Positions 2,555 through 24,000 are shown, counted from the stretch's first letter. The stretch: DNA of 24,000 nucleotides from Marinobacter litoralis (GCF_016427555.1 NZ_JAELVS010000003.1:64550-88549), one strand, 5' to 3'. Notes: generated from the letters alone by a model not told the origin. Numbers and translations: made by a program.

Positions 2555-2581
2555 GGCGTTCGACCTCCAGAGGTGAGCGTG

Positions 2582-2636: not shown

Positions 2637-2659
2637 GGTACAAATTCTTTGAATGACAT

Positions 2660-2697
2660 AAGACAGGAAACGCCTGGGCCCATTTCATGAGGCCCAG
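2660..2697 (-). terminator. probable terminator of the outer-membrane protein gene
   Basis: Perfect 7-bp inverted repeat CTGGGCC (2674-2680) / GGCCCAG (2691-2697) with a 10-nt loop. On the minus strand it is followed by GCGTTTCCTGTCTT. It begins 19 nt after the stop at 2716-2718. Confidence 0.45.
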
Positions 2698-2715
2698 ACA
2701 CAAAACAACGATCTG

Positions 2716-7645: not shown

Positions 7646-8225
7646 GGATTTGAATGGCACCGGTAAGCGGATGTCGAACTGCCAGCTGAGCAGGCCTAAA
7701 CGGCGAAACAGCAGCAATAAAGGCGAAACCGTTAGTCCTCACATCGCCTCTGCAATTCAGTCGGGAGTCTAATCTCCCAAACACTCAAGATTGAGTGAAT
7801 CTTCACGAAAATTATCCAACCATCAGTGACCTTTCCAGGTCGTGGGAATCTTTTTTCTAAAAACAGACTCCCCAGAGACGCTTTTTTGTTTTAACGACAA
7901 AACTGCCCACTTTCAAATGCTTATCCTAAAAATTCTGGAGACTTTTCGGACGAAAATGGACGAAAAACCAGACTGATAAGCCGGGATCCACTTTCAGTCA
8001 GTGAAGTGCCTGCAAACGCAGGGGCGTCGGAGCTTTCATAACCCTAGAGCTATGACGGCATTGCATCACCCCAGCCACACGCCATGATCATCCCCAACAT
8101 TCAGAATTCCCGCTGACGGCTATGCCGGCCGCATGAGTGCGGCGGACGCACTCCAACACTAAACATTGAATCATTACCACGGGGCTGCCGGCATATTTTT
8201 AAGCTATTTCATGAAGGGACCATCT

Positions 8226-9552: not shown

Positions 9553-10173
9553 CTAAACTTCAGCGGTGTGATGGAACACCGGCCGGAATCCTCGCGAAAA
9601 GGTTTTTACTACTGTAGACGGTGTAAGAACCTCTACCGTTTCAGGCAACCTATCATGAACCGCCTTTCGGTATCCCGACGCATTCCAGGCGAGTAAACCA
9701 TTCTCAGAAATTGCATAGGCAGCGTTATCAATCAGAACCATTGTTCCATGCGGAAGATCCTGAAGTTGACCTTTCCAAGTAATTTTTCGGCTGTCTTCTA
9801 TACGCTCCTCGTGGAGCATCTCATCCAACTCCGCAGAACGCACATTGCGCGCTTCAGTCCAAGCACTTGCTGACTGCCAGGCATCGCGGAACTCGTTATA
9901 ACGTTTTCGCCGGCATTCGGCGCAAGGCCGATGGCCGGCAGCGAAAGCCGTGACCTCATCAAGGAAAAAGAGCTCCGTATACCGTCCTGGCGTCATTAGC
10001 TCACGCTTCCGACCTTTAAACTCGAGCAAACATGTAATCCATGCTTTGGTTTTAAACTGACGCGTTACCTCGCGCTTGCCATTGTGCAATACCCCGCGGT
10101 TGCCCATATACGTGCCCCTTGCAGAGCTTTCTTCAATAGTGCCTTGGGGATTAACCCGATTCTGTAATGGCAT
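9553..10173 (-). CDS. conserved hypothetical protein with a Cys/His motif, 206 aa
   Basis: GGGAGAG RBS lies 8 nt before the ATG, and the gene starts 19 nt after the SNF2 stop on the same strand. The segments MPLQNRVNPQGT...GNRGVLHN and YTELFFLDEVTAFAAGHRPCAECRR look like a conserved domain of unknown function. Confidence 0.6.
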   Translation of the reverse strand: MPLQNRVNPQGTIEESSARGTYMGNRGVLHNGKREVTRQFKTKAWITCLLEFKGRKRELMTPGRYTELFFLDEVTAFAAGHRPCAECRRKRYNEFRDAWQSASAWTEARNVRSAELDEMLHEERIEDSRKITWKGQLQDLPHGTMVLIDNAAYAISENGLLAWNASGYRKAVHDRLPETVEVLTPSTVVKTFSRGFRPVFHHTAEV

Positions 10174-10192
10174 CTAAATCTCTCCCTGAACC

Positions 10193-13100
10193 CTAAGTAC
10201 TTGCTACAACGTAATCGAACCATTCCCCGAGCAAAGCCTTCTCCTCATCCTGAAAGTCCCCTGCCGGAAAATTCAACTGTGCTTCAGGTGAAGCATTCCT
10301 GCTGAGCCGGAAATTCACAAACGGAAATCGGTTATTAAGCCTTAGCAACTTTAGCAGTTGATCCTTCCCTTTGAACGCACCGACGACATTCTCCGACAGG
10401 GCATCAATTGTGTCGCTTGAAAGCGGACTTAAGAGCTGTTCAATAGGGCCAGACATAGTTTGGAAACTCAACCAAGTCTGAGGCGCGCGACTGGCCGTTC
10501 TCTCGCGAGGCAAAGCTACTGGTAGTGGTCTCGGCCCAGACACATTTTTGGCATTAATCTCGTCAATGGTGAGGTCCTGGATGCCATGGAAAAGTCTGGC
10601 CTCTAGCTCGTCAGAAAACTTCTTAATGCTCTCGAGACCCATTCGAAATTCCTCTAAAGACAGCCACTGCATCGTCCCTCGCCGAACAAACAGAGGAAAA
10701 TTGACGCGGGTGCTGAGGTAGAAATGACTGTTACCCGAGTCCTCGTCGACCGCCACGCGAACTAATGGGTACGATTGGCTCAGTTCATCAATCAATGTTT
10801 TCAACTCAGTGAGGGCTATCTTTTCAAAATTCTCGCGATTAGCAATTGGCGACGCAAAACTCACTATGTAGGCTGTCTCAGGACTCAAAGCCGAAAACCG
10901 AGGTGAAAAACCAAGCGTTGCGAATATAGGCTGGTGCCGCCGGGATTGCCCTCGCTCAATGCGTGGATCAATGATGAACAAAAGCTTTGGTGATGTCTGG
11001 CTCGACCGAGCTTCGATGATTTTGTCGTTCAGCGGATCACAAGCACTTTCGAGATGCGCTCGGATGGTCTCTGCGATATCGGAAAAAGTATGGGTATCCT
11101 GCGGCTGGTAGCAGGAATCTAATGTTTCAGGCCGATCAAATCTTGCCGGATAAGGATCGACCACCTCTTCCTCAGAATGATCAATTGGTGTTCTGAAAAG
11201 CTGCCCCCAATCCTTGTTTGCGGTCGGACGATATTCAGAATCAAATTTCGTCTGTAGGCAGGCATCCATTCGTTCTTCCACCTGATGTTTTCGCTCAATG
11301 AAAGAAGCCACTTGATCCTCATCCACGGAACCCTCTAGGTAGGGGTAATGGATACCCAGATCGCCTTTGCCAGATTCCAGCCGTTTATTGACGCACCCGA
11401 ACAAACGGTCAATCCGCCCTACCCTCTGTTCGTTATCCCCCGGTGATCCCGCTATTCCATAGTGGTGCACCTGATGACAATTCATGTGCAGATTCACCCC
11501 TTCCTGGAATACCGAGGTAGAAACCAGAACGTTGGGGTAAAAGGGGCTGTTAAAACCCAGTATCAGGCGTTGGCGGGCGCTGTTATTTTCACCACTGGCG
11601 TACCAGGCTGGACTGGTCAAACCTTTTAAGCTTCGCCATTCCTTACGCCAATCTCCGACACCATGGTCAACAATTTTGTCGCAAAGTGCTTCGAAGGTTT
11701 CCAGGGCCGCGACAAAGTAGCGGAGTAACAAAGAGCCTTTGATTTTTTCCTGCCGAACGAAATCATAGAATCCTCGGTACCACTCCTGCACATTGGCAAT
11801 CCTTCCTTTGCGGCGATACTCTGCAAACCAGCTATACAACTCCACGATCACTGGGCTCGCATGTAAAAATCCGGCTCGAATATAGTTCCCGAAGTTTTCC
11901 GCAACGGGCTTACTTGTGTTTGCCCATCTAAGCATTTGCTCCTGAAGCTTGCCAGGAAGTTCATTGAAAACCAGTTTCCATACTGTAAACAGCTCCTGAG
12001 TGTAGGCTGTTTGCGGTGCTTCAGTTTTGCCCACGGCTTCTCGCAAATCGGCAGCACTGTTCCAACGGGAAAACCGTTCATAACGAGCAGCCACACCGTA
12101 GTTGGCCCGCGTACGCTCTGAATCCCCATAAAAGTAGCTGTATCCGCCTTTGAGGTAATCACTGGACGGCTCAAGAAACAGCGAGAACAGACTTTCATGT
12201 TTGGTAAAACGCCGCCGCACATTTACACAATCGGTCTGGCCACCAGCTGCGCCTTCCTTAACAACAAACAGCTGAGCAACCCTTGATGCCAGATAATCCT
12301 CTTCCATGCCGTCAGCGTCTTCGTCATCCGCATCTACTTCCGCGCTTTCATCCTGAACGTCACCCGTTCTTACGCTTTCTAAAAGCTGTTCAAATTCGTT
12401 GCGGGAAAAGCTTTTAAGCCTTGGCTGTCCGTGAGAGTCAAATGAGGACAAGCCCAATCCGGAAAGCAGCATTTCACCTAACATTTGGTCGTAACGCTCA
12501 TTTAAGCGCTGGGTTAATTCTCTGACCGAAGGAATGCGACGAACAAAAATCAGATGTTTAAGGTTGCTGAGTGGCAACTGGTATAAATCCGCCTTTTTAG
12601 GAACACACGCCTCAATCAACCGACCGTATTTTGGGTGCCCGGGAAATCGATCGAATGCCTTATAGAAACTGTCGGTAAGCCCCATGAGCAGATTGGTATC
12701 CGGAGCCGTCGAGTAATCGGTCTTGCCTTTATCACCATCAGACGTATCCCGGTCAGGATCCTGCCGCGAGGCCTCGTCTGTTATGAGATCTCGGCCAACG
12801 GACTCAAACCCTTCCAGATACCCGTACATCAGACTTTTGTTTTCATTTTTCTTGTTTAGTTCAGCTACCAGGCCTTTCTGGTAAAGGGCAAAAAAGCCTT
12901 CTGCCTCGGGTTTTCCATCAAATGTCGCCGGCATAGGCTTTTCATGTCGGTAATGCCGTTTACTGAAGAGCTTTCCATTGGCCTCCATAAGCCGCATCCG
13001 TCGCAGTCCATAGTTATTGAGCAGGTAACTGGCGCGATCAGCTTCACTTGTCCATCCGTCCCCGGAATCCAAGAAGTAACTGAAAATGCTGTTTACATCC

Positions 13101-13849
13101 GAAAGACGGGTATGACTGGGCGTTGCTGTCAGCAATAAAGCTCTTTGTGAGAGTGGATCGTGCTTGGTACCAAAAAACGCCCCGGCTGCAGCAACCCGCT
13201 GAGAGCCGCCGTGAATATTCCTAAGGTAATGGGCCTCGTCAACGATGATCAAGTCGAAGCCCTCAGGACCAAGAGCACTTTTGATGCTCTCGTGAATCTC
13301 TTGTGCTCTTTCTCCGGCGACTATGTCAGGGCTACGACCATCAGTGTCTTCGCCCCGTAGCAAGCCACTCAATGAATGAATCGTGGTGAGATAAAAATGG
13401 GAAACGCCCTGGCTCACTGCGGCATCTAGATCAGCTAATGACTTACAGATTTCTATGCTGGGAACGACACCTCCATCAACACTGTTCTTAACGGTGTGGT
13501 CGACAACCCGGTAGTGGGAACTCACCAAGTTGTTAAATTCCCGGCGCCAGTGCAGGCATAAATCCCTGTTGGGTGCCATCACCAAAACTCGGGCATCAGG
13601 TTTCCTCTTCCATAACAGCGCTGCAACCCCCAGCGCCTGGAAGGTCTTGCCCATACCTACTTCATCCGCCAGCAGAGCCACTTTCTGTTCCGCTAACACA
13701 TTCCATAAGTAGGCGACCCCTTCGGTCTGTTTAGCAGGCATAGATTGGCGGTCGTGCGCACTATAGCGCCAGTCTTTCTGGCCACGATTGAAGTTGATCC
13801 ACTCCGAGACCATGTCGGGACTTAACAGCCCCCAATCGGATACGCTCAT
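10193..13849 (-). CDS. SNF2-family (superfamily-2) helicase/translocase, 1218 aa
   Basis: Motif I is LLADEVGMGKTFQALG (nt 13643-13666), and Ia is LVMAPN. Motif II is IIVDEAHYLRN (DEAH at 13229-13240), and III is LLLTATPSHTR. Motif V is STSVFQEGVNLH, and VI is NEQRVGRIDRLFG. The ATG overlaps the PLD gene stop (ATGA). The last ~400 aa carry no recognisable motif. Confidence 0.9.
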   Translation of the reverse strand: MSVSDWGLLSPDMVSEWINFNRGQKDWRYSAHDRQSMPAKQTEGVAYLWNVLAEQKVALLADEVGMGKTFQALGVAALLWKRKPDARVLVMAPNRDLCLHWRREFNNLVSSHYRVVDHTVKNSVDGGVVPSIEICKSLADLDAAVSQGVSHFYLTTIHSLSGLLRGEDTDGRSPDIVAGERAQEIHESIKSALGPEGFDLIIVDEAHYLRNIHGGSQRVAAAGAFFGTKHDPLSQRALLLTATPSHTRLSDVNSIFSYFLDSGDGWTSEADRASYLLNNYGLRRMRLMEANGKLFSKRHYRHEKPMPATFDGKPEAEGFFALYQKGLVAELNKKNENKSLMYGYLEGFESVGRDLITDEASRQDPDRDTSDGDKGKTDYSTAPDTNLLMGLTDSFYKAFDRFPGHPKYGRLIEACVPKKADLYQLPLSNLKHLIFVRRIPSVRELTQRLNERYDQMLGEMLLSGLGLSSFDSHGQPRLKSFSRNEFEQLLESVRTGDVQDESAEVDADDEDADGMEEDYLASRVAQLFVVKEGAAGGQTDCVNVRRRFTKHESLFSLFLEPSSDYLKGGYSYFYGDSERTRANYGVAARYERFSRWNSAADLREAVGKTEAPQTAYTQELFTVWKLVFNELPGKLQEQMLRWANTSKPVAENFGNYIRAGFLHASPVIVELYSWFAEYRRKGRIANVQEWYRGFYDFVRQEKIKGSLLLRYFVAALETFEALCDKIVDHGVGDWRKEWRSLKGLTSPAWYASGENNSARQRLILGFNSPFYPNVLVSTSVFQEGVNLHMNCHQVHHYGIAGSPGDNEQRVGRIDRLFGCVNKRLESGKGDLGIHYPYLEGSVDEDQVASFIERKHQVEERMDACLQTKFDSEYRPTANKDWGQLFRTPIDHSEEEVVDPYPARFDRPETLDSCYQPQDTHTFSDIAETIRAHLESACDPLNDKIIEARSSQTSPKLLFIIDPRIERGQSRRHQPIFATLGFSPRFSALSPETAYIVSFASPIANRENFEKIALTELKTLIDELSQSYPLVRVAVDEDSGNSHFYLSTRVNFPLFVRRGTMQWLSLEEFRMGLESIKKFSDELEARLFHGIQDLTIDEINAKNVSGPRPLPVALPRERTASRAPQTWLSFQTMSGPIEQLLSPLSSDTIDALSENVVGAFKGKDQLLKLLRLNNRFPFVNFRLSRNASPEAQLNFPAGDFQDEEKALLGEWFDYVVAST

Positions 13850-15798
13850 TTTCCTTCCCTGTTAGAGCTACGGCGAAAGTATTCGTCGGTTAACCATGCG
13901 CGGTATTCTTCACTGACCGATGCCGGCAGCGCCGGTTCCGCAACAATCAAAGCTTCCCATCTTTGGAATGTTTTCTCAGATCCAGCACCGACTAACTCTG
14001 CCTGCTTTGAACGGGCCGTACTGCATAGCTGATTAACCTCCTGGGTAAGAAACCAGTTAAACAGAGTAGGCGCAGAGCTACTCTCAATGCGGTGCACCGT
14101 TTTTTCTACCAGCTCTTGGAGACACCCAGGACGAATGAACGCCCAATACTCCAGTTCTTTCTGATCCCGGCAACCAGCCAACAGCTCCTCATAGTGATGG
14201 CAAGCAGAGAACAGCCGAAAATAACTGATGTCAGCCGATTGATGTTCATGTTCGGAGACCACAGCGGCATCGTCTGAGACCAGAGCGTCAACCAACGCCC
14301 GCCCATCATCGTCCTCCTCGACGCGGTAGGCAGCAGCATCGGTAGGAGGTTCACCGCCGGATAGCACCAACGCATCCAGCAAGCCTCGTAGATCCTCATA
14401 CTGTTGAGCTCTTCGGAAGATCGGACGTGTTTCAATAATCAAACCTTTTGCGATCGCAACATCACCGCTGAGTACCTCATAATTGCGGTCTACTAAAAGC
14501 GGTTTCGTGGATGCTACCGGCAACTCCAGTTTCTGTAGTACGAAAACATCACCGTGAGAATCAACCACCCATTGAAGCTTCACTGAATGGGAAAGTCCGG
14601 GAAGTTCTAGCTCAAACTCACAATCAGGCTCCGACGTACCAACCCACACTCCCGAAATGTAAAAACGCTCGATTTGCCAGTCAAACACCACGCGCAGATC
14701 AAAAGGCGGGGGCTCCGGGACTCGAAGACTTTCCTGCTCCATTTGGTCTGGTGTCGCAAATAAAGCTTCAGACAACGGCAACACCTCACCCACATACTCC
14801 GCCAAAGGAGACTCATCAACGATAAGCAAACCTGCTTCTACGTTATGGATGGGATAGCCACCGTCTGGTATCAAATTGCTCCCAGGCTGAGTGAAATTCC
14901 AGGATCCAATCGCTAATCGATCCGGTGTTTTCCAAAGCTTTGCATGGGTCATAAAGCTTCGGTGATCACGTTTGGAGGGGCTCTGGTGCAAAGAGAGCAG
15001 CCCTTGCTCGTGCAACTTGGCCAAGCCCTGGTTCCATTCAGCGCGTAAATACTGATTCTCTACCCTGTCTGGTACCAGCTGAACCCGAAGGTCAGGAGCT
15101 ACTGCAAAACGCTGTAAGTTCCTCACGTACTTACTGATATCTCTTGAAAAATAAGGGGACCAAACGGCAAGTTCACTTGGTTTGCTATCAAAAAGACGAT
15201 TAAGAAAGGGTATCCCTGCCAGACTATGACAGAAGCTCACCCCCGGATCCTCCGTCTGACCCGGGATGGAAAAATCTTCAGGGAATCGTTCTTGAACGTT
15301 GGTAAACACTGGCTGAAAGAAACTTCTAACGGATTCCGCCATGCTCCGACTTGCCACCGGAACAAAGGAGAACAGCTCCTGATTTCTGCCCCAGCCATCC
15401 ACGGTCAGGTTTGCGCTCCCGGAACCAAGAGCAGAACCTTTGTCGCCCTGAAGATAGATAACCTTTGCGTGGAACAGACTGTGCTCAGAGAAAGAAATGT
15501 CTCCATTGGATGACAATCTTTCCGGTGAAACGCCATGAATTGGAATTGCGGTTCGTTTATTCTGATCTGGCTCGATGAATCGCTTGTCACAGAACACTCG
15601 AATATCGATACCCCGCTCGCTCAGTACCTGCTGCATCCCCTCATAGTCCATTCTAAGCTTTGGGGGATCCATCCCTAGAATGGTCGGTAAAAGGTAGGTT
15701 TCGATAAATTCGATGTTGATGACGAAACTGGTGAGCCAAACCCGCTGAAGCGTGCCTACTTCGTCAATCTGTTTTCGGAAAGTCGAGAGCAATTTCAA
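13846..15798 (-). CDS. phospholipase-D-family nuclease with two HKD motifs, 650 aa
   Basis: HKD 1 is HAKVIYLQGDKGSALGSGSANLT (nt 15403-15471). HKD 2 is HAKLWKTPDRLAIGSWNFT (nt 14890-14946). The TTG start (15796-15798) overlaps the upstream TGA (TTGA) and follows GGGGGTGA. The C-terminal ~300 aa are unassigned. Confidence 0.85.
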   Translation of the reverse strand: MKLLSTFRKQIDEVGTLQRVWLTSFVINIEFIETYLLPTILGMDPPKLRMDYEGMQQVLSERGIDIRVFCDKRFIEPDQNKRTAIPIHGVSPERLSSNGDISFSEHSLFHAKVIYLQGDKGSALGSGSANLTVDGWGRNQELFSFVPVASRSMAESVRSFFQPVFTNVQERFPEDFSIPGQTEDPGVSFCHSLAGIPFLNRLFDSKPSELAVWSPYFSRDISKYVRNLQRFAVAPDLRVQLVPDRVENQYLRAEWNQGLAKLHEQGLLSLHQSPSKRDHRSFMTHAKLWKTPDRLAIGSWNFTQPGSNLIPDGGYPIHNVEAGLLIVDESPLAEYVGEVLPLSEALFATPDQMEQESLRVPEPPPFDLRVVFDWQIERFYISGVWVGTSEPDCEFELELPGLSHSVKLQWVVDSHGDVFVLQKLELPVASTKPLLVDRNYEVLSGDVAIAKGLIIETRPIFRRAQQYEDLRGLLDALVLSGGEPPTDAAAYRVEEDDDGRALVDALVSDDAAVVSEHEHQSADISYFRLFSACHHYEELLAGCRDQKELEYWAFIRPGCLQELVEKTVHRIESSSAPTLFNWFLTQEVNQLCSTARSKQAELVGAGSEKTFQRWEALIVAEPALPASVSEEYRAWLTDEYFRRSSNREGK

Positions 15799-17240
15799 TG
15801 ATCACCCCCGTAGTAGCCGCTGACCAGGAAATTAAACTGATGCAAATAGTAAGAATTCACCCAAGAACCAGGTGGGCGGTCACCTGCAACCGGTAACGAT
15901 GCCGTTCGGCCATGGTTATGAACTTCCCCGCTCCGCGCCAGCTCGACCCAGCGTAATTGGCCCCGCTGCTTCATGACGGTCGCATGGTAATCCAGTAAAG
16001 CGACAAGCTGTTCTTCTACGGTATTCAAGCGGGCAATTTGAAGTATTTTTTCCAAACGCTTTCGGCCTGTTTCTTGAAGAGGAACCCGAATTTCAGGGTG
16101 GTCAACGATTGTCTCAGCGTAACTTTGTAGCGTGGTTTCGGAACGACCGAGCCGCTGCCAGTGATCCCGAATTTCTGCCACGGCCTGAACCTTCTTGTGT
16201 CGGGCAACTCGAAAGAGCAAATCTACTTCAGCAAGCAAAGGTTCAATACGCTGGATGTTCTGAAGTTTCTGGCGTTCAGCGGTTTCACCATCAAAGGTCT
16301 TAACCGCCTCTTCAACAATGGACTGAGGGTTCAGTTTCTCCGGTGCAACATCATTGGCTTTGAACTGACTGAGCTTTTTTTTCATAACATTTAGAAGTTC
16401 ACCAGCAGATCCCTCGTTCAGTCCCGTCGCTGAAAGCCAGAAGTCCCGTGTTTCCGAGCCGACCTTGGCACCAGTAATGAAAGCCGTGCGGTAAGCGTTC
16501 TTTAGAACTGGCGAAATCTCCAGGAAATTAATCCTGGGAGGCACTTGGGACTTGGCCTGCGCTGAGTGAACAAGATTTACCAAGTGCCTTCTGACCTCTG
16601 TGAAGCAATAACGCAGTGAATCACTACTTGATAGCAGCTTCTCAAACTCAGCCCAGCGCTCTTGAGCCGTAGGATCAATATAGCGGTAGTTCTGATCGAA
16701 GAACCCTATCTCTACAAACGGTGTTTTGTAACGACCGCTCACTCCCAAGCCCAGCTGGCGAACTAACAATTGGCCTGAAGGTTTATCCGTAAAAATCAGC
16801 TGGTGATCCCCTTTGCTCTCCTGCTCTTCCAAAACGGCGCGACCTTTACTACCACCCAAGATACCGAGCGTATCGATACCCGCGTCCTCTGGTCGATGAA
16901 CCATTGAGTAGGTAAAGATATTCTCCAGATGTATCAGGCAGGCATGAATAAATGGCAGGCTATCTTTCGGCCCCAGCTCATTGGCAAGTGCATCGGACAC
17001 CTGAACTTCTTCATCGAGAAGTATCGAGCGAATCACACCATGATGCAGCAAGTTGAGCGTAAAATTTCGGACATCATTTGAGACGGAGTTTACGCGGTTT
17101 CGGAAGACCTGTTGGCCATAAGCCGACCAGATAACCAGCTGGCCGAGCGGGTCGATAAACGAATCACCAGACAAGGAGTCATCGTATTCGGTAAGCATAT
17201 CCTTAAGCTTCATAAGACAGTCCAATCCTTGGAGAAACAA
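15795..17240 (-). CDS. hypothetical protein, no family recognised (up to 481 aa)
   Basis: Long ORF with coding-like composition, flanked without gaps by the GIY-YIG gene (stop 17241-17243) and the PLD gene (4-nt overlap). The start is uncertain. TTG 17238-17240 abuts the upstream stop; ATG 17211-17213 is the alternative. Confidence 0.6.
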   Translation of the reverse strand: MFLQGLDCLMKLKDMLTEYDDSLSGDSFIDPLGQLVIWSAYGQQVFRNRVNSVSNDVRNFTLNLLHHGVIRSILLDEEVQVSDALANELGPKDSLPFIHACLIHLENIFTYSMVHRPEDAGIDTLGILGGSKGRAVLEEQESKGDHQLIFTDKPSGQLLVRQLGLGVSGRYKTPFVEIGFFDQNYRYIDPTAQERWAEFEKLLSSSDSLRYCFTEVRRHLVNLVHSAQAKSQVPPRINFLEISPVLKNAYRTAFITGAKVGSETRDFWLSATGLNEGSAGELLNVMKKKLSQFKANDVAPEKLNPQSIVEEAVKTFDGETAERQKLQNIQRIEPLLAEVDLLFRVARHKKVQAVAEIRDHWQRLGRSETTLQSYAETIVDHPEIRVPLQETGRKRLEKILQIARLNTVEEQLVALLDYHATVMKQRGQLRWVELARSGEVHNHGRTASLPVAGDRPPGSWVNSYYLHQFNFLVSGYYGGDH

Positions 17241-18155
17241 TCACGTTAAAGCTTCCGGCTCCAGCTTCTCAGCCTCCCAAGCCTTATACGTTTTCCCTTC
17301 CGGTAATCGCCATTCAGTGGTGCCATTGGTTGGACGGCCATTCACCACTGCCGCTGCAGCACTTGGGCTTTTAAACGCGTAGTTCTCGGTAAACACAGCA
17401 AGCTCTCCCTCTGGGCGTATGACACCCGCTGCCACCAGCTCACCATGCAGCTTACTGTAGCCAGTGTGGTGAGTGCTCTTACCTCGCCATCTGGGACTGA
17501 CTTTGGAGCCCGTGAGAACCACAAATTCCCCATCCGTGAGCACAGCTTTGGCCTCGATAGCATGCTTGGGGGTTCGAAGTTCAAACACTGTATCCGGCTC
17601 ATCTGGGTCAGCAGAGGAAACTGAACCTGTTTTTGCCTGCGGTCGAGTCTGAGCAAGAAAACTGTCGATACGTATGGCGGGCAGCACCATCATAAGGTAC
17701 TCAAGAAAGCTCTCCATATTGGCCTGCGCAGCCTCACTCAGCGAGGAGCGCGGGGGTGTATTGCCATTGTCTAGTCGGATTTTGCCAGCCCGTCGAGCCT
17801 CTTCAACCAGCCTGGATTCCAGATACTTTGCATGTGCCTTATTAAGGTTATTCCCGGCAGTCGTTATAAGAACCGCAGTGGTCCACCAATCCTTGGACGT
17901 GTCATGGCTTTTAATCCGCCCGCCGATATCCTCACCCTCCCCGATGTAAGCCAACGGACCGTCATCATCTTCGCCAAACAACAAATATACGCCAGTGTAG
18001 CTGGCTTCCGGCCTCTTCAAGGCGGCTCCCAGGCGCGTGCGCGGAGCCATGAGCACATGACCCGTCCAGTTAAACACCTCGGCTGTCAGCATGCCGTCGG
18101 GTTTTCCATCGATGAAGAATAGTTCGAGAGACTGCCCTTTATTGTTAATCATCAT
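17241..18155 (-). CDS. GIY-YIG nuclease family protein with C-terminal DUF4357-like domain, 304 aa
   Basis: GIY-YIG core is GVYLLFGEDDDGPLAYIGEGEDIGGRIKSH followed by AKYLESRLV. The C-terminal FVVLTGSKVS...FTENYAFKSPSAAAAVVNGRPTNGTTEWR matches the DUF4357 pattern, which occurs in restriction-modification (R-M) and defence neighbourhoods. Confidence 0.8.
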   Translation of the reverse strand: MMINNKGQSLELFFIDGKPDGMLTAEVFNWTGHVLMAPRTRLGAALKRPEASYTGVYLLFGEDDDGPLAYIGEGEDIGGRIKSHDTSKDWWTTAVLITTAGNNLNKAHAKYLESRLVEEARRAGKIRLDNGNTPPRSSLSEAAQANMESFLEYLMMVLPAIRIDSFLAQTRPQAKTGSVSSADPDEPDTVFELRTPKHAIEAKAVLTDGEFVVLTGSKVSPRWRGKSTHHTGYSKLHGELVAAGVIRPEGELAVFTENYAFKSPSAAAAVVNGRPTNGTTEWRLPEGKTYKAWEAEKLEPEALT

Positions 18156-18197
18156 TCTCTGCTATCGTTGATTCGACTTTTTACTGCTTTATCGTGT

Positions 18198-20039
18198 CTA
18201 CCTTCGGGTTTGAAACGCAAAGCTCCGCCGCCCAACCACTCGAAAATCTCGTGAGCCAGCAAGTTTCTGCTCGTACTCCACACCAGCTCCGTTCACTCGA
18301 AGGTACCGCTTTGTCTTGCAAGACTTACAATCTGTCGCAAAGCTACTGGGTTCTTGATGAACCAGCTTTACTGGACTTGAGCAAACCGGACATCGCTCAA
18401 GTACCATGATTTCCTGTTGTCTTCTGCCCAACTCCCTCACTTGAGAAGCTGCATTGTCATCGACAAGTGACCGCTCAACCCGTGAAAGATCACCCTCGCT
18501 CAGACCCTCTACAAGTCTAATTTCATGTCGTTTCGATTCTACTGCCAGGCCTTTAATTTCTCGCGCGATTCTTAGTGAATTGGCTGGGACTTTTAAGATC
18601 GGGCAACCGTATCCAGCCACCAGCTCCCTCTGTAAAAGCTGATCGATCAGATAACCAAATCTTTCGACGCTATACAGGTCGAACGGCGATAGCTGAATCC
18701 ATATGCCATCGATGGGAACTTCACTGGAATACAAGTGTTCGTCCGTCAATTTTGGCCAAGCCACTACTCTAGACAAAGGGTGATCGAAATTCTGCTCCGC
18801 AGAAAGTTCGTTTGGACGTTCGCCCAACTCCAACCAAGGAACAACTTCCAAGAGAATTTTTTCTGTTCTGCTTGAGTCATCGGGAGATAAAATCAACTGC
18901 CAGTCGAGCCCTACCTGTCTCAGCTCAAGATTCAGCCCGGCCCAACGCGATGAAAACTCAGTTCTGAGATAAGGTGCCAAAGCATGACGAAGAACCAGAC
19001 CGGCGTATCTCGAATACGTTAGGTTCAGCGCTTCGTTTCGCGCGCATCGTTCCTCAGGCGTCGTCTGTTTACCGCCAACGACACTCCGTAACTCATTCCA
19101 AAGGACAGGTAAATGGCGGTAATGCTGATCATGGCTCAGGATATTCGTAAGATGCAGTCCGTCTCCGATATTTACGCCGCGGTTCACCAACAGGTACAAA
19201 CCTCTCTGCTTGAGACCTCGAACTATACCAAGCGCATTCTCTAGCTGTTCCAGCGTTTCGGCTAGCTGTTCGGACGCTTTATTGGTTGAATCCTGAGTAA
19301 AGGCTTTTCCCCAAAGCCTGCATATTTCGTCAGTCAGGCGATGATGAAGCTCATTAGTTCCGTAAAACTCCAACGCCTCATTAACGGCAGACTGGATCTG
19401 CTTTAGCGTGCCGACTCGTTTGCACAAATATTGCTCGATTTTGTCAAGCAACCTTGCGTACACACGATTTTCATAGATATTAAAGTCGTCCTCGCTAAAC
19501 CGGGCTTTCACTCTCTTGGGTATAACACCGGACAAGGTCTGGCGCTGCCAGCACTCAGAATGCGAGGCCAGATGCACCAAGGCTCCTTTAGCTAACTTCT
19601 TGGCCCTCGCGACATCCGTGACCTCTTCTTCGTAGTGCAGGTCCAACCTAGGTCTCATCGATATTTGATGAAGGTGCCCCGCTCCGATGGTCTCGATCAG
19701 TTTCAAATCAAATGAGTTTAGGTGACTATCTTCGTTAACCACACCCTCAGGCATTAATGGTGATGCCAGCCCATTTCCACTCTCGATGCTTGAATCTATC
19801 GTATCCAGGATGCGCTCGAATAAATCGGCTTTCTGGACGATTGCCTTATCCGGCAACCTAAAGGATTTTCGCTCGCCATCGACATTGGCAATTTCGCTCC
19901 CATCGTCAACCAAGAGACCGCTCGTTCCCACACCTAAAGATTTTGGATGTCCAGCCGTTGCCTCAGCTAAATAACGGCCGGACTCGACAACGTCAGGTAA
20001 ACGCTCGATAGCCTTCCCAGTCAGCCGATCCACCCACAT
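18198..20039 (-). CDS. McrC-like (DUF2357-type) partner protein with C-terminal zinc ribbon, 613 aa
   Basis: The ATG overlaps the McrB-like gene stop (TAATG). DFNIYENRVYARLL resembles the conserved ENR segment of McrC/DUF2357 proteins. A PD-(D/E)xK-like stretch SPDDSSRTEKILLEVVPW follows. The tail has CPVC-x17-CKSC. The assignment rests on position plus weak motifs. Confidence 0.55.
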   Translation of the reverse strand: MWVDRLTGKAIERLPDVVESGRYLAEATAGHPKSLGVGTSGLLVDDGSEIANVDGERKSFRLPDKAIVQKADLFERILDTIDSSIESGNGLASPLMPEGVVNEDSHLNSFDLKLIETIGAGHLHQISMRPRLDLHYEEEVTDVARAKKLAKGALVHLASHSECWQRQTLSGVIPKRVKARFSEDDFNIYENRVYARLLDKIEQYLCKRVGTLKQIQSAVNEALEFYGTNELHHRLTDEICRLWGKAFTQDSTNKASEQLAETLEQLENALGIVRGLKQRGLYLLVNRGVNIGDGLHLTNILSHDQHYRHLPVLWNELRSVVGGKQTTPEERCARNEALNLTYSRYAGLVLRHALAPYLRTEFSSRWAGLNLELRQVGLDWQLILSPDDSSRTEKILLEVVPWLELGERPNELSAEQNFDHPLSRVVAWPKLTDEHLYSSEVPIDGIWIQLSPFDLYSVERFGYLIDQLLQRELVAGYGCPILKVPANSLRIAREIKGLAVESKRHEIRLVEGLSEGDLSRVERSLVDDNAASQVRELGRRQQEIMVLERCPVCSSPVKLVHQEPSSFATDCKSCKTKRYLRVNGAGVEYEQKLAGSRDFRVVGRRSFAFQTRR

Positions 20040-22498
20040 TAAAACCCGCCCTCTTTCCTTTTGATGTCTTTCTCCAAAAGATCAAGTGAGGTCACTGGAA
20101 GACTATCCAGGCCCGTTCCGCTCCAGAACGCTTCCAATGAAGACATCAATTTTCGAACGGAATCCGCGCTTACATCGAAGCGACCTGTTACCTTACCCTG
20201 GCGCATTATTCTGCTCGCTAGCAGGTGATCCAGAGCCTCACCCCTGGTCGCCCCTGATGACATCATCACGGGGATAAACCTGAGCGCCTGCTTCTCAAAG
20301 CGGTTGCCCCACCCCAGACCAAAGTCAGTCTCAAGCTGTTTTGTAAAGTCGTTTTCGGTTAATTTACCTAGCAAATCTTTCACAGAGGCGGTGTGCTCCC
20401 CGCAGGCAGAATCGAAGGCTTTCTGAAGAGAACTGAATGAATAGCTCGCAGGTGGATATTCCTTGATACGGAAACTGTGATCCTGCTTCGGAAGTGTCAT
20501 CACATGTGACCGATCATAAGTCTTATCAGCTAGCTCATTAGTCGTCTCGTCATGATTTGCCGTGCCGATAAACCAAACGTTGTTCGGCACAAGAATCTGG
20601 CGCCCATCCCTCAGCATATTTGGTGCCCCGGGCAACTCTGTTTCAGAAAGGCTGATTAGTCGCTCGGCCGGATTATTTTTTTCAAGAGCGGACAAGAATT
20701 CTGCGAAATATTGCTCTGGTCGAGAGAGGTTCATCTCATCAAGCAAGATCACATTACAAGAGTCTTGCCAGCGAGGGGCCTGTGCCTTGTATAGAGCTTG
20801 CAAGCAGTCCTTCTCGTAGAAACGGCGCTCAAAGGCGTTGAAATGACCCAGCAAATCATCGCGATCTCTCCAGCCTGCCTGCACGGCTATGTCCTGACAG
20901 AACCCTCCCATGGCCTTAGCAAAGGCCTTCGCAAGGCTCGTTTTACCCGTGCCACTAATTCCTTGGAACACGTGTAACTGACTCATAGCCAAACCACCGA
21001 GAAGCAGCCTGATATCCTCAATCGGATAGAATAGCTCCACATTCTTTTCAGCTCGGGCAATACGGTGCTGAAGTTCTTCTGCAAAGGACTTCAAATCTGG
21101 CACATGCTCAAGTTCGATGCTGGCCTGGAAGGCTTTATCAGTGTCCATGATCGACATCGCAGGGAACGCTGTTTTGGCCTTTTGCGCATTGGTCAATTGA
21201 TCAATACGAGTTTCAAGATCATCAATGTGGACCGCTAACGTATTTTTGTGAGATTCGAGAACCCGCTTCTCCCGGGCAATGGCTTCAAGCTCCGTAGCAG
21301 CTACACGCTTCACGCTCAACTCTCGACGCGCTTCGTCAAGTTCCGGGCGCAGAGCGGCAATGTCTCGCTCCAAGTCTGAGACTTTATCCCGTAGATATTG
21401 ATTGTCTTGCTGCAACCCAGCGGTGTCTGAAGATTCCAGCTGTCTTTTCAGCTCGCGATTTTCAGCAGTCAATCTCTCTAAATTCTCAAGTATTTCTGCC
21501 GGAGAGCGCTCGCCCAGTGCAGTACCCAACTCCTGGAGGTCATGTAACCGTTCTTGTAGCGTCTGAACCTTTTCCCAAGCCTTCTCTCTCTGTGCAGATA
21601 CCTTCGCCAACTCGAGCGCAAACCCCTTTCGCTCAGCTTCCATTCCCTCAGCTATGCGATTTTCTAGCTCAGCTTGCTCTGTTTTGAGTTCTGACCAATC
21701 GCGGTCCAGCCTTGTTCTATCGCGACTTAGCTTTGCCTTTTCCTGGCTGAGCTCATGCTCTCTCGCATCAAGCGCGTCAATTCGCTGAGCTTCTGCGTCA
21801 GAACAGCTATGCCTGATTTCTGCCAGCTTTCGTGCAGCCTGCTTTATTTCCTCTCCAAGCGCGGTCTTCTGATCCTGTAGATCCTTCAGATCTGATTCTC
21901 GCTGCACAATCAGCTGACGCTGTTGCTCTTCCAGTTGCCGCAGTGCTTTCTCATTCTCCTCTGCAAATCCTGCCTCAGCATTCGCCTCTCTCTGCTTAAG
22001 CAATCGTTCGAGGCTCAAAAGATCATTTTTCTTGGTTGCTAACTCCTGCTCCAGCTCGTCTATGCCGGCAACTCGTTGCTCCAAGGCCTCACGGTCTGCC
22101 TCAACCCGCTCAGCTTCGAGTTGCAGCCGTTTGTGTTCGGCATTGTTTTCTTCACCAAGCTTGCTGGCCTTCTCCCAACGTTGGATATATTCCTCGTTGA
22201 GCTTCTCCTGGTATTTGCTGAGCTCCTTACACACCTCTGCAAATCGCTCAATCCATCTCGCTATTGAGGCAGTGTCCTCAGTCTTCTGAAGCGCATCCAG
22301 GACCCGACCGATCAATTCTTTGTCGACGTCAATATCTAGGTTTGAACCAGTGGCTTGATAGACCTTTGATGCATTCTCAAACGAGGCTGCCCATATCGGA
22401 CCATGCTTTTCGAGTGACGCAGCCTGACGAGAAGGTGCAGCGGGAGCTCCTGTTGCCACCGGGGAGGCATTGCGTTTGTTTCCATTCTTCTTGGCCAT
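20039..22498 (-). CDS. McrB-like AAA+ (AAA_5/COG1401) NTPase with long N-terminal coiled coil, 819 aa
   Basis: Residues ~95-450 are E/K/R/L/Q-rich with almost no Pro or Gly, as expected for a coiled coil. P-loop is FQGISGTGKTSLAKAF (nt 20936-20962). Walker B is VILLDEMNLSRPEQYFAEFLSALE. FIGTANHDETTNELADKTYDRSHV sits at the McrB signature position. TAATG overlaps occur at both ends of the gene. Confidence 0.85.
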   Translation of the reverse strand: MAKKNGNKRNASPVATGAPAAPSRQAASLEKHGPIWAASFENASKVYQATGSNLDIDVDKELIGRVLDALQKTEDTASIARWIERFAEVCKELSKYQEKLNEEYIQRWEKASKLGEENNAEHKRLQLEAERVEADREALEQRVAGIDELEQELATKKNDLLSLERLLKQREANAEAGFAEENEKALRQLEEQQRQLIVQRESDLKDLQDQKTALGEEIKQAARKLAEIRHSCSDAEAQRIDALDAREHELSQEKAKLSRDRTRLDRDWSELKTEQAELENRIAEGMEAERKGFALELAKVSAQREKAWEKVQTLQERLHDLQELGTALGERSPAEILENLERLTAENRELKRQLESSDTAGLQQDNQYLRDKVSDLERDIAALRPELDEARRELSVKRVAATELEAIAREKRVLESHKNTLAVHIDDLETRIDQLTNAQKAKTAFPAMSIMDTDKAFQASIELEHVPDLKSFAEELQHRIARAEKNVELFYPIEDIRLLLGGLAMSQLHVFQGISGTGKTSLAKAFAKAMGGFCQDIAVQAGWRDRDDLLGHFNAFERRFYEKDCLQALYKAQAPRWQDSCNVILLDEMNLSRPEQYFAEFLSALEKNNPAERLISLSETELPGAPNMLRDGRQILVPNNVWFIGTANHDETTNELADKTYDRSHVMTLPKQDHSFRIKEYPPASYSFSSLQKAFDSACGEHTASVKDLLGKLTENDFTKQLETDFGLGWGNRFEKQALRFIPVMMSSGATRGEALDHLLASRIMRQGKVTGRFDVSADSVRKLMSSLEAFWSGTGLDSLPVTSLDLLEKDIKRKEGGF

Positions 22499-23988
22499 TA
22501 CATCCAGTCCTTAAAGCATTCCGTGAAATTCTTTGCATACGTCATCTGTTCTATCACCAGGTCCTGAGTAATCTCTTTCGACCTCCGTTTATTGAAACGA
22601 CTCTGTCCATGGCTACTCTGATTCCGAAGGTCAGCCAGATCTAACAACTGCATTAGCTGTAAGTCCGAATCTTGCAAAACCTTTAGCGGGTGCTGATCGT
22701 CGTTGAGTGCCCCCATTCCCGCGGCAAACAGTAAGGCTTTGAGAGAGCTTGATGGGTTGCGACACGATTTGATGACGTCATCTAAGCGCTGCCTCGCTAA
22801 TATTCGAATGACATCTTCGGTGAAAGATGGAATACCCAATGCGCCAAGCAACCCTTCATTCAGACTCCAGTTCGATTTCTTCGCGGATGGTATCTGCCCC
22901 ACATTCGCAGGGTAGGTCTTGATCAACCATTGCATAACCACTTCGAGAAGCTTCTGACAGTCACCGAGAGCAGCCTCCAAATCAGAATCCCAAGTCAGTC
23001 CCGATTCGATTCTGCGTCGCCACTTCAATATTCGGGCGAAATACCGCTTGATGTCGGGCTGAGCCTCTACCCAGGGGTACTCGATCAAAATATCCAGCTC
23101 CGTTCTCTTTTGAAGCTCTCTCAACCACTCTTCATTAGTCAGTGCCCCTGCGTCTGGAATACCAATCAGCGGCGCGAGAAAATTCCGAAGCTTAGTGTCT
23201 GAGTCCAGCAACTGCCTCACAGGCTCTTCGAGCCACCAGGCGCCTTCCCTGAGCCCAAACGGATCCCTTACTGACCAGAGCTCGTCCCCCTCATCATCAC
23301 CCGTTATCCAAACCACAATTCTCGCGGCCTCCGGTGAATCGTCCAGACGCTGAATGCCCTGCAATCGCACAGAATCAGATGACGAATGCAAGCCGTCCAT
23401 TTGCTGGCTGGCCCGAAAATCTTTCCGATAGTCACGGTAGGCCCGAGCGAGCCCCTCGTTATCTAAAGCAGGCAGGTTTTGCTTTTTTGATCTGGCGAGA
23501 TAGGGCCGGAAGGTGTGACCTGTCCGTCTCTCAACAGAAAACTCCGGAAACCTGGCTTGCGGATCCAGAGGCTCTATTTGTTCGAGCCTTGTTACCATTC
23601 GTGGCCAGAAATCACCGCTTATCGCGTCCTGAATCAGGAAGCCAGCCTTGAGATTCGACGACTCATCTTCCTCAGCGTCCAGCAGCTTGTGTCCTTCATC
23701 CGTCAGAGCATCCGCCCCCGTGGTCAACCAACCATGACTAATCCCTTGCGCAATAATCAGGGCGATCAATTCCGGGTGTAGACCAGTCAGAGCGGCAATA
23801 TCATCCTGTCTGGTGCATTTGGCCCTGATCAGTCCCAAAACCGCTCGCTGAAACAAATTCAACTCGGGCTGCCTTGGTTCAGGATAGAGAACTCGATGAA
23901 CAAGGACCGGCCAAAGAATCGCTTTCGATTTTGACCTGGGCCGATCGCTGAATTTGAGATAGCTGCCAGTTTCAACGAACGCTGCCAT
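22498..23988 (-). CDS. hypothetical protein with N-terminal wHTH-like segment and C-terminal R-x4-H (HEPN-like) motif, 496 aa
   Basis: ATG 23986-23988 is preceded by GGAGG plus a 5-nt spacer; the ORF-track GTG at 24000 is less likely. LNLFQRAVLGLIRAKCTRQDDIAALTGLHPELIALIIAQGISHGWL is wHTH-like. DLRNQSSHG (R-N-Q-S-S-H at nt 22609-22626) lies 42 aa from the C-terminus. Confidence 0.65.
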   Translation of the reverse strand: MAAFVETGSYLKFSDRPRSKSKAILWPVLVHRVLYPEPRQPELNLFQRAVLGLIRAKCTRQDDIAALTGLHPELIALIIAQGISHGWLTTGADALTDEGHKLLDAEEDESSNLKAGFLIQDAISGDFWPRMVTRLEQIEPLDPQARFPEFSVERRTGHTFRPYLARSKKQNLPALDNEGLARAYRDYRKDFRASQQMDGLHSSSDSVRLQGIQRLDDSPEAARIVVWITGDDEGDELWSVRDPFGLREGAWWLEEPVRQLLDSDTKLRNFLAPLIGIPDAGALTNEEWLRELQKRTELDILIEYPWVEAQPDIKRYFARILKWRRRIESGLTWDSDLEAALGDCQKLLEVVMQWLIKTYPANVGQIPSAKKSNWSLNEGLLGALGIPSFTEDVIRILARQRLDDVIKSCRNPSSSLKALLFAAGMGALNDDQHPLKVLQDSDLQLMQLLDLADLRNQSSHGQSRFNKRRSKEITQDLVIEQMTYAKNFTECFKDWM

Positions 23989-24000
23989 GGTCACCTCCAC

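What the first reader, a model, noticed from the sequence alone, without database searches (positions are those of the whole stretch)
22498..23988. Operon-leading 496-aa protein combines a wHTH-like segment with a terminal R-N-x3-H motif
Seen in sequence:
- DLRNQSSHG, with R at 22624-26 and H at 22609-11, sits 42 residues from the C-terminus inside a helical-looking segment.
- The N-terminal third contains a helix-turn-helix-like stretch.

Established knowledge: R-x4-6-H, often RNxxxH, is the catalytic signature of HEPN RNases such as Cas13, Csm6/Csx1, the Abi families and many toxins.

Inference: this could be a nucleic-acid-binding HEPN RNase acting as the effector or sensor for the adjacent McrBC-like motor. 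A six-residue motif alone is weak evidence. The middle ~300 aa match nothing I recognise.
Basis: partly seen in the sequence, partly recalled or inferred. Interest (0 to 1): 0.7.

Follow-up and report, generated by a model that had tools for sequence, protein, structure and literature searches.

The report
CnuE HEPN nuclease of CoCoNuT defence

Summary
The ORF (minus strand, 22498-23988), the wHTH and the DLRNQSSHG motif are real and correctly placed. R455 and H460 are invariant: with E349 they are the only invariant residues across 71 cluster representatives down to ~20% identity. Orthologues reach Pfam's cut-off for HEPN_RiboL-PSP.

"Operon-leading" is a window-edge artefact. The window is 100% identical to a 64.9-kb public contig. 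There the gene follows a VWA protein, a PP2C phosphatase, a Ser/Thr kinase and a 1131-aa UPF1-like SF1 helicase, whose stop codon overlaps the start of this gene by 17 nt. The block VWA-PP2C-kinase-helicase-[this gene]-coiled-coil McrB (NxD motif)-McrC-like with zinc ribbon recurs in Vibrio, Pseudomonas and a Thalassobium MAG with different flanks.

This is the Type II CoCoNuT of Bell et al. 2024: TerY-P + CnuH + CnuE + CnuB + CnuC. The target is CnuE. A 2026 preprint reports that a seven-gene Type II CoCoNuT from P. aeruginosa protects against RNA phages and one DNA phage.

Most likely mechanism (inferred): a HEPN RNase docked by its wHTH/linker to the CnuH helicase and working with the CnuBC GTPase. 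RNase activity is untested, and the fold search was inconclusive.

Verdict: an already known kind, of low to moderate interest.

The parts
23972..24000 (-). 3' end of cnuH, the 1131-aa UPF1/IGHMBP2-like SF1 helicase whose body lies beyond the window. Its stop TGA is at 23974-23972, overlapping the cnuE start by 17 nt.
   Evidence: Pfam AAA_11/AAA_12, NCBIfam IGHMBP2 family, PADLOC MkoA 2e-81.
23994..23998 (-). Shine-Dalgarno GGAGG, 5 nt upstream of the cnuE ATG and inside the cnuH coding sequence.
   Evidence: Sequence read directly.
22498..23988 (-). cnuE: 496-aa wHTH-linker-HEPN protein (the finding).
23668..23844 (-). Winged helix-turn-helix, aa 49-107.
   Evidence: Pfam PF24409, 30.1 bits against a cut-off of 27. 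All 32 homologues match. Foldseek finds MarR-type wHTH hits. PADLOC MkoB N-terminus, 2.7e-5, aa 26-152.
23164..23667 (-). Extension of the wHTH plus linker, aa 108-275: a beta-hairpin wing (113-132), helix 177-197, a small sheet and helices 251-274. No family match.
   Evidence: AF2 model. Corresponds to the 'elongated wHTH' and coiled-coil linker described for CnuE.
22501..23136 (-). All-helical C-terminal HEPN domain, aa ~285-496.
   Evidence: AF2 pLDDT 87.4, pTM 0.84. Pfam HEPN_RiboL-PSP in 19/32 homologues, at gathering score in P0094 and P0101.
22942..22944 (-). E349, an invariant glutamate in the QKxxE helix and a putative third active-site residue.
   Evidence: 71/71 representatives.
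22609..22626 (-). R455-N456-Q-S-S-H460, the HEPN R-[ND]-x3-H motif.
   Evidence: R and H in 71/71 representatives, position 456 is N in 56 and D in 15. Coordinates verified.
20039..22498 (-). cnuB: 819-aa protein with a long coiled coil (aa ~70-460) and a McrB-like AAA+ GTPase. Its start overlaps the cnuE stop by 1 nt (TAATG).
   Evidence: Pfam AAA_5 and PADLOC PDC-M26A 3.6e-36. SMC-like coiled-coil hits and a weak McrB hit.
20546..20557 (-). N648-H649-D650-E651 of CnuB: the shortened NxD(E) signature in place of McrB's NxxD.
   Evidence: Invariant in four orthologues. This is the defining feature of the CoCoNuT clade.
18198..20039 (-). cnuC: 613-aa McrC-like protein (weak DUF2357 match) with no recognisable active PD-(D/E)xK domain. 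Its start overlaps the cnuB stop by 1 nt.
   Evidence: Matches the published description.
18318..18392 (-). C-terminal zinc ribbon of CnuC: CPVC (C550, C553) and CKSC (C571, C574).
   Evidence: Invariant in four orthologues. 'Two CPxC motifs' are typical of Type II CnuC.

Best explanation
The gene is cnuE, the effector subunit of a Type II CoCoNuT (coiled-coil nuclease tandem) anti-phage system.

Shown. It is the fifth gene of a conserved, translationally coupled seven-gene block: TerY-like VWA, PP2C phosphatase, Ser/Thr kinase, CnuH helicase, CnuE, CnuB (coiled-coil NxD McrB-type GTPase) and CnuC (McrC-like with zinc ribbon). It has an N-terminal winged helix and a C-terminal helical domain of the HEPN superfamily. 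The R-[ND]-x3-H motif and one glutamate are the only invariant residues of the family.

Inferred. The HEPN domain, probably as a dimer as in other HEPN RNases, is a metal-independent endoribonuclease that leaves 2',3'-cyclic phosphate ends. It is the system's main or only active nuclease, because Type II CnuC is described as catalytically dead. The elongated wHTH and helical linker dock CnuE onto the helical insertion of the UPF1-like helicase CnuH. Helicase translocation on RNA would then deliver or license cleavage. The CnuBC GTPase complex and the TerY-P kinase/phosphatase switch would gate activity.

The outcome would be restriction of phage RNA, abortive infection by host RNA degradation, or both.
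For: Context. The window is 100% identical to contig L001, which shows VWA, PP2C, Pkinase and the AAA_11/AAA_12 helicase directly upstream. The same seven-gene block, with the same 17-nt helicase/CnuE overlap, occurs in Vibrio, Pseudomonas and a Thalassobium MAG with unrelated flanks.

CnuB and CnuC. CnuB has a long coiled coil and an invariant N-H-D-E (NxD) motif. CnuC has DUF2357, no nuclease family hit and two CxxC pairs. All of this matches the published definition of Type II CoCoNuT, including a single-HEPN CnuE with RxxxxH and overlapping reading frames.

HEPN. Pfam HEPN_RiboL-PSP matches 19/32 homologues and reaches the gathering score in two. E349, R455 and H460 are the only invariant residues among 71 representatives down to ~20% identity. 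NCBI names the Vibrio orthologues 'HEPN domain-containing protein'.

Helicase-effector coupling. The helicase matches PADLOC MkoA at 2e-81 and the CnuE N-terminus matches MkoB. This is the Mokosh type I helicase plus wHTH-nuclease pairing with HEPN in place of PLD.

Function. A seven-gene Type II CoCoNuT (Obs) from P. aeruginosa protects against RNA phages PP7 and LeviOr01 and DNA phage MPK7 (bioRxiv 10.64898/2026.04.06.716636).
Against: No CnuE has been assayed for RNase activity. In the Obs study, transposon hits were in obsC and obsG, not in the CnuE gene.

The window protein itself scores only 14 bits on HEPN_RiboL-PSP, against a cut-off of 28.4.

I could not match any homologue to the accession Bell et al. 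give for a Type II CnuE, because the supplement is truncated in the library.

The SmpB-like and RelE-like domains of CnuH and the inactivity of the CnuC nuclease were not tested here.
Confidence: 0.85

Rival explanations
1. The protein is a transcriptional regulator or sensor of the operon. The wHTH binds operator DNA, and the HEPN-like domain is a non-catalytic ligand- or nucleotide-binding module.
For: The wHTH is structurally MarR-like. Some HEPN domains are non-catalytic. Sequence-level HEPN support for the window protein alone is weak.
Against: The only invariant residues of the whole family are the catalytic-type E, R and H, while the wHTH has none. The gene is translationally coupled inside the operon rather than divergent or leading. 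The homologous wHTH in Mokosh MkoB carries a PLD nuclease, which argues for an adaptor-plus-nuclease design. Type II CnuC is described as nuclease-dead, leaving HEPN as the only nuclease.
Confidence: 0.07
2. The protein is an autonomous HEPN toxin (HepT-, ApeA- or Abi-like abortive-infection or toxin-antitoxin module) that merely sits next to an McrBC-like system in a defence island.
For: UniRef names one homologue 'Apea-like HEPN domain'. The region is a dense defence island.
Against: In all four independent genomic contexts the gene lies in the same seven-gene block with conserved overlaps. No MNT-type antitoxin is adjacent. A profile search of 1.84 billion representatives finds this HEPN subfamily almost only in ~480-520-aa proteins of the same architecture.
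Confidence: 0.04
3. The C-terminal domain is not HEPN at all. It is a novel helical domain in which R-x4-H is conserved for a non-nuclease reason.
For: Foldseek found no significant HEPN match. PDB sequence-profile searches found nothing.
Against: Two orthologues reach Pfam's curated threshold for a HEPN family over 120 profile positions. The R-[ND]-xxx-H-[AG]-S pattern on a helix end is the classical HEPN signature (established knowledge from Anantharaman et al. 2013). Bell et al. independently assigned HEPN to Type II CnuE.
Confidence: 0.04

Closest known systems
CnuE of Type II CoCoNuT systems (Bell, Sahakyan, Makarova, Wolf & Koonin, eLife 2024, PMC11090510)
   Same: The architecture matches: elongated wHTH, helical/coiled linker and a single HEPN with RxxxxH. 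So does the position, immediately downstream of and overlapping the UPF1-like helicase CnuH, and upstream of and overlapping CnuB (coiled-coil NxD McrB) and CnuC (zinc ribbon, no active nuclease). The TerY-P triad lies upstream. The host range is gammaproteobacterial and the locus is embedded in a co-directional defence superoperon with a Type I RM S subunit upstream and PLD and SNF2 genes downstream.
   Different: No difference was detected. Identity with the paper's listed representatives could not be checked because the Type II sheet of the supplement is not held.
Obs (Obangsin) seven-gene locus of P. aeruginosa PMM16, a Type II CoCoNuT (bioRxiv 10.64898/2026.04.06.716636)
   Same: Both are seven-gene Type II CoCoNuTs (obsA to obsG/cnuC). 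Obs provides experimental proof that such a locus protects against RNA phages PP7 and LeviOr01 and DNA phage MPK7.
   Different: The host differs. The sequence relation to the window protein was not measured (the Pseudomonas orthologues found here are ~55% identical). The contribution of the CnuE-equivalent gene was not dissected.
Mokosh type I (MkoA helicase + MkoB PLD nuclease; Millman et al. 2022, recalled from memory; PADLOC models PDLC03920/03922)
   Same: The upstream helicase matches MkoA (2e-81). The upstream kinase matches the N-terminal part of the same MkoA model (6e-12). The CnuE N-terminus (aa 26-152) matches the MkoB N-terminus (2.7e-5). Both share the design of an SF1 helicase followed by a wHTH-nuclease.
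   Different: The effector domain is HEPN rather than PLD. The module is fused into an operon with an McrBC-like GTPase pair and VWA/PP2C genes.
RiboL-PSP-HEPN family (Pfam PF18735) and the HEPN superfamily (Csm6/Csx1, Cas13, HepT, RNase L, Abi families)
   Same: The R-[ND]-x3-H motif sits at a helix end in an all-alpha domain. Orthologues reach the Pfam gathering score.
   Different: The domain is larger (~210 aa with inserts) and the window protein is below threshold (14 bits). It forms its own narrow subfamily of about 107 clusters at 50% identity, almost always fused to the CnuE-type wHTH. There is no CARF or MNT partner.

Membership tests
Type II CoCoNuT (system) | McrB-like GTPase with an NxD (not NxxD) signature fused to a long N-terminal coiled coil (CnuB) | tested here: met
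   N648-H649-D650-E651, the Walker A motif G513-T520 and D587-E588 are invariant in four orthologues. About 400 aa of coiled coil give SMC-, LmuB- and JetC-like hits.
Type II CoCoNuT (system) | UPF1-like SF1 helicase CnuH encoded immediately upstream of CnuE, with a large insertion after Walker A | tested here: met
   A 1131-aa protein on the identical contig. AAA_11 spans aa 417-813 for 251 profile positions and AAA_12 also matches. The best NCBIfam hit is the IGHMBP2 family.
Type II CoCoNuT (system) | SmpB-like OB fold and RelE-like (RTL) domain at the CnuH N-terminus | not testable with these tools
   The N-terminal 415 aa has no Pfam hit.
Type II CoCoNuT (system) | CnuC is McrC-like (DUF2357) with a zinc ribbon reduced to two CPxC-type motifs, lacks an Hsp70-like unit, and has an inactivated nuclease domain | tested here: met
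   DUF2357 is weak (E 3e-4). CPVC and CKSC are invariant. No Hsp70 or PD-(D/E)xK family hit was found. Inactivation of the nuclease fold itself was not verified structurally.
Type II CoCoNuT (system) | TerY-P triad (VWA, PP2C, Ser/Thr kinase) upstream (frequent, not core) | tested here: met
   (weak TerY hit; Pkinase 4.5e-15).
CnuE (Type II) | N-terminal elongated wHTH followed by a helical/coiled linker | tested here: met
   Pfam PF24409 is above its cut-off. The AF2 model shows a wHTH with a long beta-hairpin wing and following helices. Foldseek finds MarR-type hits.
CnuE (Type II) | One HEPN domain with a conserved RxxxxH, and no second RxH HEPN as in Type III-A | tested here: met
   There is a single R-x4-H, invariant in the family. 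No histidine follows H460.
CnuE (Type II) | Sequence identity with the representatives listed by Bell et al. (for example AVE71179.1) | not testable with these tools
   The Type II sheet of the supplement is not held. The accession was not among the listed cluster members.
HEPN superfamily / Pfam HEPN_RiboL-PSP | Score at or above Pfam's gathering threshold (28.4 bits) | tested here: inconclusive
   The window protein scores 14.0 bits (E 0.047), covering only profile positions 143-188. Orthologues P0094 (28.6 bits) and P0101 (29.3 bits) pass, with coverage of up to positions 70-189 of 191. 19 of 32 homologues hit at E up to 0.1.
HEPN superfamily / Pfam HEPN_RiboL-PSP | Conserved R-x4-6-H catalytic motif | tested here: met
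   R455 and H460 are present in 71/71 representatives, and position 456 is N or D.
HEPN superfamily / Pfam HEPN_RiboL-PSP | Four-helix up-down HEPN core fold, with R/H juxtaposed across a dimer interface | tested here: inconclusive
HEPN superfamily / Pfam HEPN_RiboL-PSP | Metal-independent RNase activity | not testable with these tools
   Requires biochemistry.
Mokosh type I | MkoB with a PLD nuclease domain | tested here: not met
   Only the N-terminal 146 of 610 MkoB profile positions match. The C-terminus is HEPN, not PLD. The locus works like, but is not a member of, Mokosh.

The most novel reading that the evidence does not exclude
CnuE may not be a promiscuous suicide RNase. It could be a helicase-guided, substrate-selective RNA restriction nuclease. 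In this reading, the Mokosh-like kinase-CnuH-CnuE module recognises and cuts phage or aberrant RNA directly, for example ssRNA phage genomes, with the invariant E349/R455/H460 triad as its active site. The CnuBC GTPase would serve as a licensing clamp. That would make Type II CoCoNuT a true RNA-level analogue of Type IV restriction.
Probability: 0.3. Interest if true: 0.6.

Novelty: already known. Interest (0 to 1): 0.25.

Why it matters
The finding re-derives, from raw sequence, a component of a published defence family, so it adds no new kind of system.

Its value is confirmatory. It gives a clean, complete Type II CoCoNuT locus in a marine gammaproteobacterial contig, whose closest homologues are from Marinobacter and Halomonas. 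Across the whole CnuE family only E349, R455 and H460 are invariant, which gives three precise mutagenesis targets. It also makes explicit that kinase-CnuH-CnuE is a Mokosh-type I-like module carrying HEPN instead of PLD.

No CnuE has been tested biochemically. Type II CoCoNuT has now been reported to stop RNA phages, so these residues are the obvious first test of the RNA-targeting hypothesis.

Tried and rejected
- Foldseek of the full-length AF2 model against the PDB returned only wHTH hits and a weak Csm6 hit.
- Foldseek of a separately predicted C-terminal domain returned no significant hit, with HEPN structures only in the noise.
- An hmmsearch of the C-terminal profile against PDB sequences gave only chance hits such as IMPDH.
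- NCBIfam has no model for CnuE or CnuC.
- Pfam finds nothing in the CnuH N-terminal 415 aa.
- I looked for the locus tags and accessions of homologues, and for AVE71179, in the supplement of Bell et al. The held file is truncated to the Type I-A sheet.
- Cluster-member look-up did not reveal the paper's representative accession.
- I considered and rejected 'operon-leading', a Type III-A assignment (no second RxH HEPN, no Hsp70-like CnuCD), and Mokosh membership (no PLD).
- No tRNA genes or compositional breaks mark the island inside the window.


Full report
**Observation**

The minus-strand ORF from ATG 23988 to the stop at 22500-22498 encodes 496 aa. A GGAGG Shine-Dalgarno lies 5 nt upstream of the ATG. 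Homologues begin with the same MAAF N-terminus, so the start is sound.

DLRNQSSHG is present, with R455 at 22624-22626 and H460 at 22609-22611. It is the only R-x4-6-H in the protein. From the protein's own composition, about 1.9 such loose motifs are expected by chance, and 0.018 of the stricter RNxxxH.

The wHTH is real. Pfam wHTH-PRTase_assc matches aa 49-107 at 30.1 bits against a cut-off of 27. The AF2 model's N-terminal domain superposes on MarR-type winged helices.

**Homologues and conservation**

More than 120 full-length (~496 aa) homologues exist in Gammaproteobacteria, including Marinobacter (85% identity), Halomonas (82%), Pseudomonas, Aeromonas, Vibrio and Xenorhabdus. In 32 of them, down to 44% identity, R455, N456 and H460 are invariant.

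A profile of the C-terminal 221 aa was searched against 1.84 billion representative proteins.
- It finds only 107 clusters, almost all 470-530 aa long, with the domain in the same C-terminal position.
- This is a narrow subfamily tied to one architecture.
- Aligning 71 of these representatives (19-44% identical to the query) leaves exactly three invariant residues in the entire protein: E349, R455 and H460.
- Position 456 is N (56 sequences) or D (15), giving the pattern R-[ND]-x3(4)-H-[AG]-S.

That pattern is what a catalytic site looks like.

**Is the domain HEPN?**

| Test | Result |
|---|---|
| Pfam HEPN_RiboL-PSP, window protein | 14 bits (E 0.047), below the 28.4-bit cut-off |
| Pfam HEPN_RiboL-PSP, 32 homologues | 19 hit the family |
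| Pfam HEPN_RiboL-PSP, best orthologues | P0094 28.6 bits, P0101 29.3 bits; coverage up to profile positions 70-189 of 191 |
| AF2 model of aa 276-496 | confident and all-helical (pLDDT 87.4, pTM 0.84); motif at the end of helix 445-459, then a flexible loop and a last helix |
| Foldseek against the PDB | nothing significant; HEPN structures 2hsb (TM-score normalised to target length 0.61), 6m6w_B HepT, 1wwp and 2q00 appear only in the noise |

The sequence-profile evidence and the motif support HEPN. The fold test is inconclusive.

**Context**

The window stops 12 nt upstream of the ATG, which is why the gene looked operon-leading. The exact protein lies on Logan contig SRR13594299_873 (64.9 kb). 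Window 12498-24000 is 100% identical to it.

Upstream on the same strand lie, in order:
- a Type I RM S subunit;
- an AAA_13 protein (PADLOC candidate PDC-S06);
- a NucS_C-like protein (PDC-S11);
- a VWA protein (weak TerY hit);
- a PP2C phosphatase;
- a Ser/Thr kinase;
- a 1131-aa SF1 helicase (AAA_11 with a large insertion, AAA_12, NCBIfam IGHMBP2 family).

The helicase stop (window 23974-23972) overlaps the target's start by 17 nt.

Downstream, the target's stop overlaps the start of an 819-aa protein by 1 nt. This protein has about 400 aa of coiled coil and a McrB-like AAA+ domain. Its stop in turn overlaps the start of a 613-aa McrC-like protein by 1 nt.

The block VWA-PP2C-kinase-helicase-target-McrB-McrC, including the 17-nt overlap, recurs in Vibrio, Pseudomonas and a Thalassobium MAG with unrelated flanking genes.

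**Identification**

This is the Type II CoCoNuT of Bell et al. 2024 (PMC11090510). The features that paper defines were checked here.

| Defining feature | Result here |
|---|---|
| CnuB with NxD instead of NxxD, usually followed by E, fused to a long coiled coil | N648-H649-D650-E651, invariant |
| UPF1-like helicase CnuH with a large insertion | present |
| CnuE: 'elongated wHTH fused at its C-terminus to' a single HEPN with RxxxxH | present |
| CnuC with a zinc ribbon reduced to two CPxC-type motifs and no active nuclease | CPVC and CKSC invariant; no nuclease family hit |
| TerY-P triad | present |
| Reading frames overlapping the start of cnuBC | present |

Type III-A is excluded. There is no second RxH HEPN and no Hsp70-like CnuCD.

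Two CnuH features could not be tested here: the SmpB-like and RelE-like N-terminal domains, which gave no Pfam signal. I also could not compare directly with the paper's representative accessions.

**Relation to Mokosh**

The helicase matches the PADLOC MkoA model at 2e-81. The kinase matches the N-terminal part of the same model at 6e-12. The CnuE N-terminus (aa 26-152) matches the N-terminus of MkoB at 2.7e-5.

Kinase-CnuH-CnuE therefore has the Mokosh type I design, a helicase followed by a wHTH-nuclease, with HEPN in place of PLD. This supports reading the wHTH and linker as a helicase-docking adaptor with an exchangeable nuclease. It argues against reading the wHTH as an operator-binding repressor. 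The locus is not a Mokosh member, because it has no PLD.

**Mechanism**

Shown: the architecture, the conservation and the operon structure.

From the literature:
- Type II CnuC is nuclease-dead, and HEPN is the only recognisable nuclease.
- AF2-multimer models suggest that the CnuE wHTH contacts the helical insertion of CnuH.
- A seven-gene Type II CoCoNuT (Obs) from P. aeruginosa protects against RNA phages PP7 and LeviOr01 and DNA phage MPK7, with transposon hits in obsC and obsG (bioRxiv 10.64898/2026.04.06.716636).

Inferred:
- CnuE is a dimeric, metal-independent HEPN RNase using R455, H460 and probably E349.
- It is delivered or licensed by CnuH translocating on RNA.
- It is gated by the CnuBC GTPase and the TerY-P phospho-switch.
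- It acts either by cutting phage RNA or by abortive degradation of host RNA.

I give 0.85 to 'CnuE HEPN effector of a Type II CoCoNuT'. The subunit assignment is close to certain. The catalytic and docking steps are less so.

**Rivals**

- A wHTH regulator with a non-catalytic HEPN (0.07) is disfavoured. The only invariant residues are catalytic-type, and the gene is translationally coupled inside the operon.
- An autonomous HEPN toxin (0.04) is disfavoured by the strictly conserved seven-gene block and the architecture-restricted subfamily.
- 'Not HEPN at all' (0.04) is kept alive only by the inconclusive fold search.

**Novelty and score**

The kind is already described, computationally in 2024 and with a defence phenotype in 2026. 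This locus shows no departure from it. Public annotation of the family is still mostly 'hypothetical protein', and no CnuE has been assayed.

The practical yield is a set of three mutagenesis targets and an explicit link to Mokosh. Interest is 0.25. The most novel reading not excluded is a helicase-guided, selective RNA restriction nuclease rather than a suicide RNase (probability ~0.3, interest if true 0.6).

Noticed in passing
window 9553-18155 (minus strand): Directly downstream of cnuC and on the same strand lie three PADLOC candidate systems. They are PDC-S14 (17241-18155, GIY-YIG-like plus DUF4357, 5.8e-119), PDC-M27ABC (15795-17240 unknown; 13846-15798 PLD; 10193-13849 SNF2 helicase, E ~0) and PDC-S40 (9553-10173, 1.1e-81). 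Together with the CoCoNuT they form a co-directional defence 'superoperon' of the kind drawn in Fig. 8 of Bell et al. (PLD, SWI2/SNF2).
   Followed up: partly
L001 1-3620 (upstream of the window on the same contig): A Type I RM S subunit, a 740-aa AAA_13 ATPase (PDC-S06, 1e-290; weak PrrC/LmuB similarity) and a 356-aa NucS_C/Shedu-like nuclease (PDC-S11, 6e-142) precede the TerY-P triad on the same strand.
   Followed up: partly
L001 5218-10017 and window 22498-23988: The PADLOC MkoA model (PDLC03920) is hit by two separate genes here: the kinase (profile 9-279) and the helicase (profile 507-1081). The CnuE N-terminus hits MkoB. The kinase-CnuH-CnuE part of a Type II CoCoNuT thus looks like a split Mokosh type I module with HEPN replacing PLD. 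'Mokosh' does not occur in the text of Bell et al. 2024.
   Followed up: partly
window 22942-22944 (E349): Besides R455 and H460, a single glutamate in a QKxxE helix is invariant across 71 CnuE representatives, while no residue of the wHTH is invariant. It is a possible third catalytic or positioning residue.
   Followed up: partly
window 8166-9143 (+) and 4142-7069 (-): An integrase-like ORF (Pfam Integrase_1, 1.5e-9; TTG start) sits on the opposite strand just beyond PDC-S40. Further on is a 975-aa UvrD-type helicase with C-terminal topoisomerase-type zinc ribbons. This may mark the mobile-element edge of the defence island. No tRNA gene is in the window.
   Followed up: no
window 1448-2701 (-) and 2716-3318 (-): An ADP-ribosylglycohydrolase (2.7e-75) lies next to an OmpA-like beta-barrel protein. 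Any relation to the island is unknown.
   Followed up: no
window 18198-20039 (CnuC), aa 452-460: A motif LSPxDxYxVERxG (D454, E459, R460) is invariant in four CnuC orthologues just before the zinc ribbon. It could be the remnant of the PD-(D/E)xK site, with R in place of K, but this was not examined structurally.
   Followed up: no
L002/L003 1963-3054; L004/L005 2343-3695: The genes immediately upstream of the TerY-P triad differ between hosts: a metallo-beta-lactamase-fold protein in Vibrio, and Type I RM plus a PLD protein in Pseudomonas. This is consistent with variable ancillary modules around a fixed seven-gene core.
   Followed up: no
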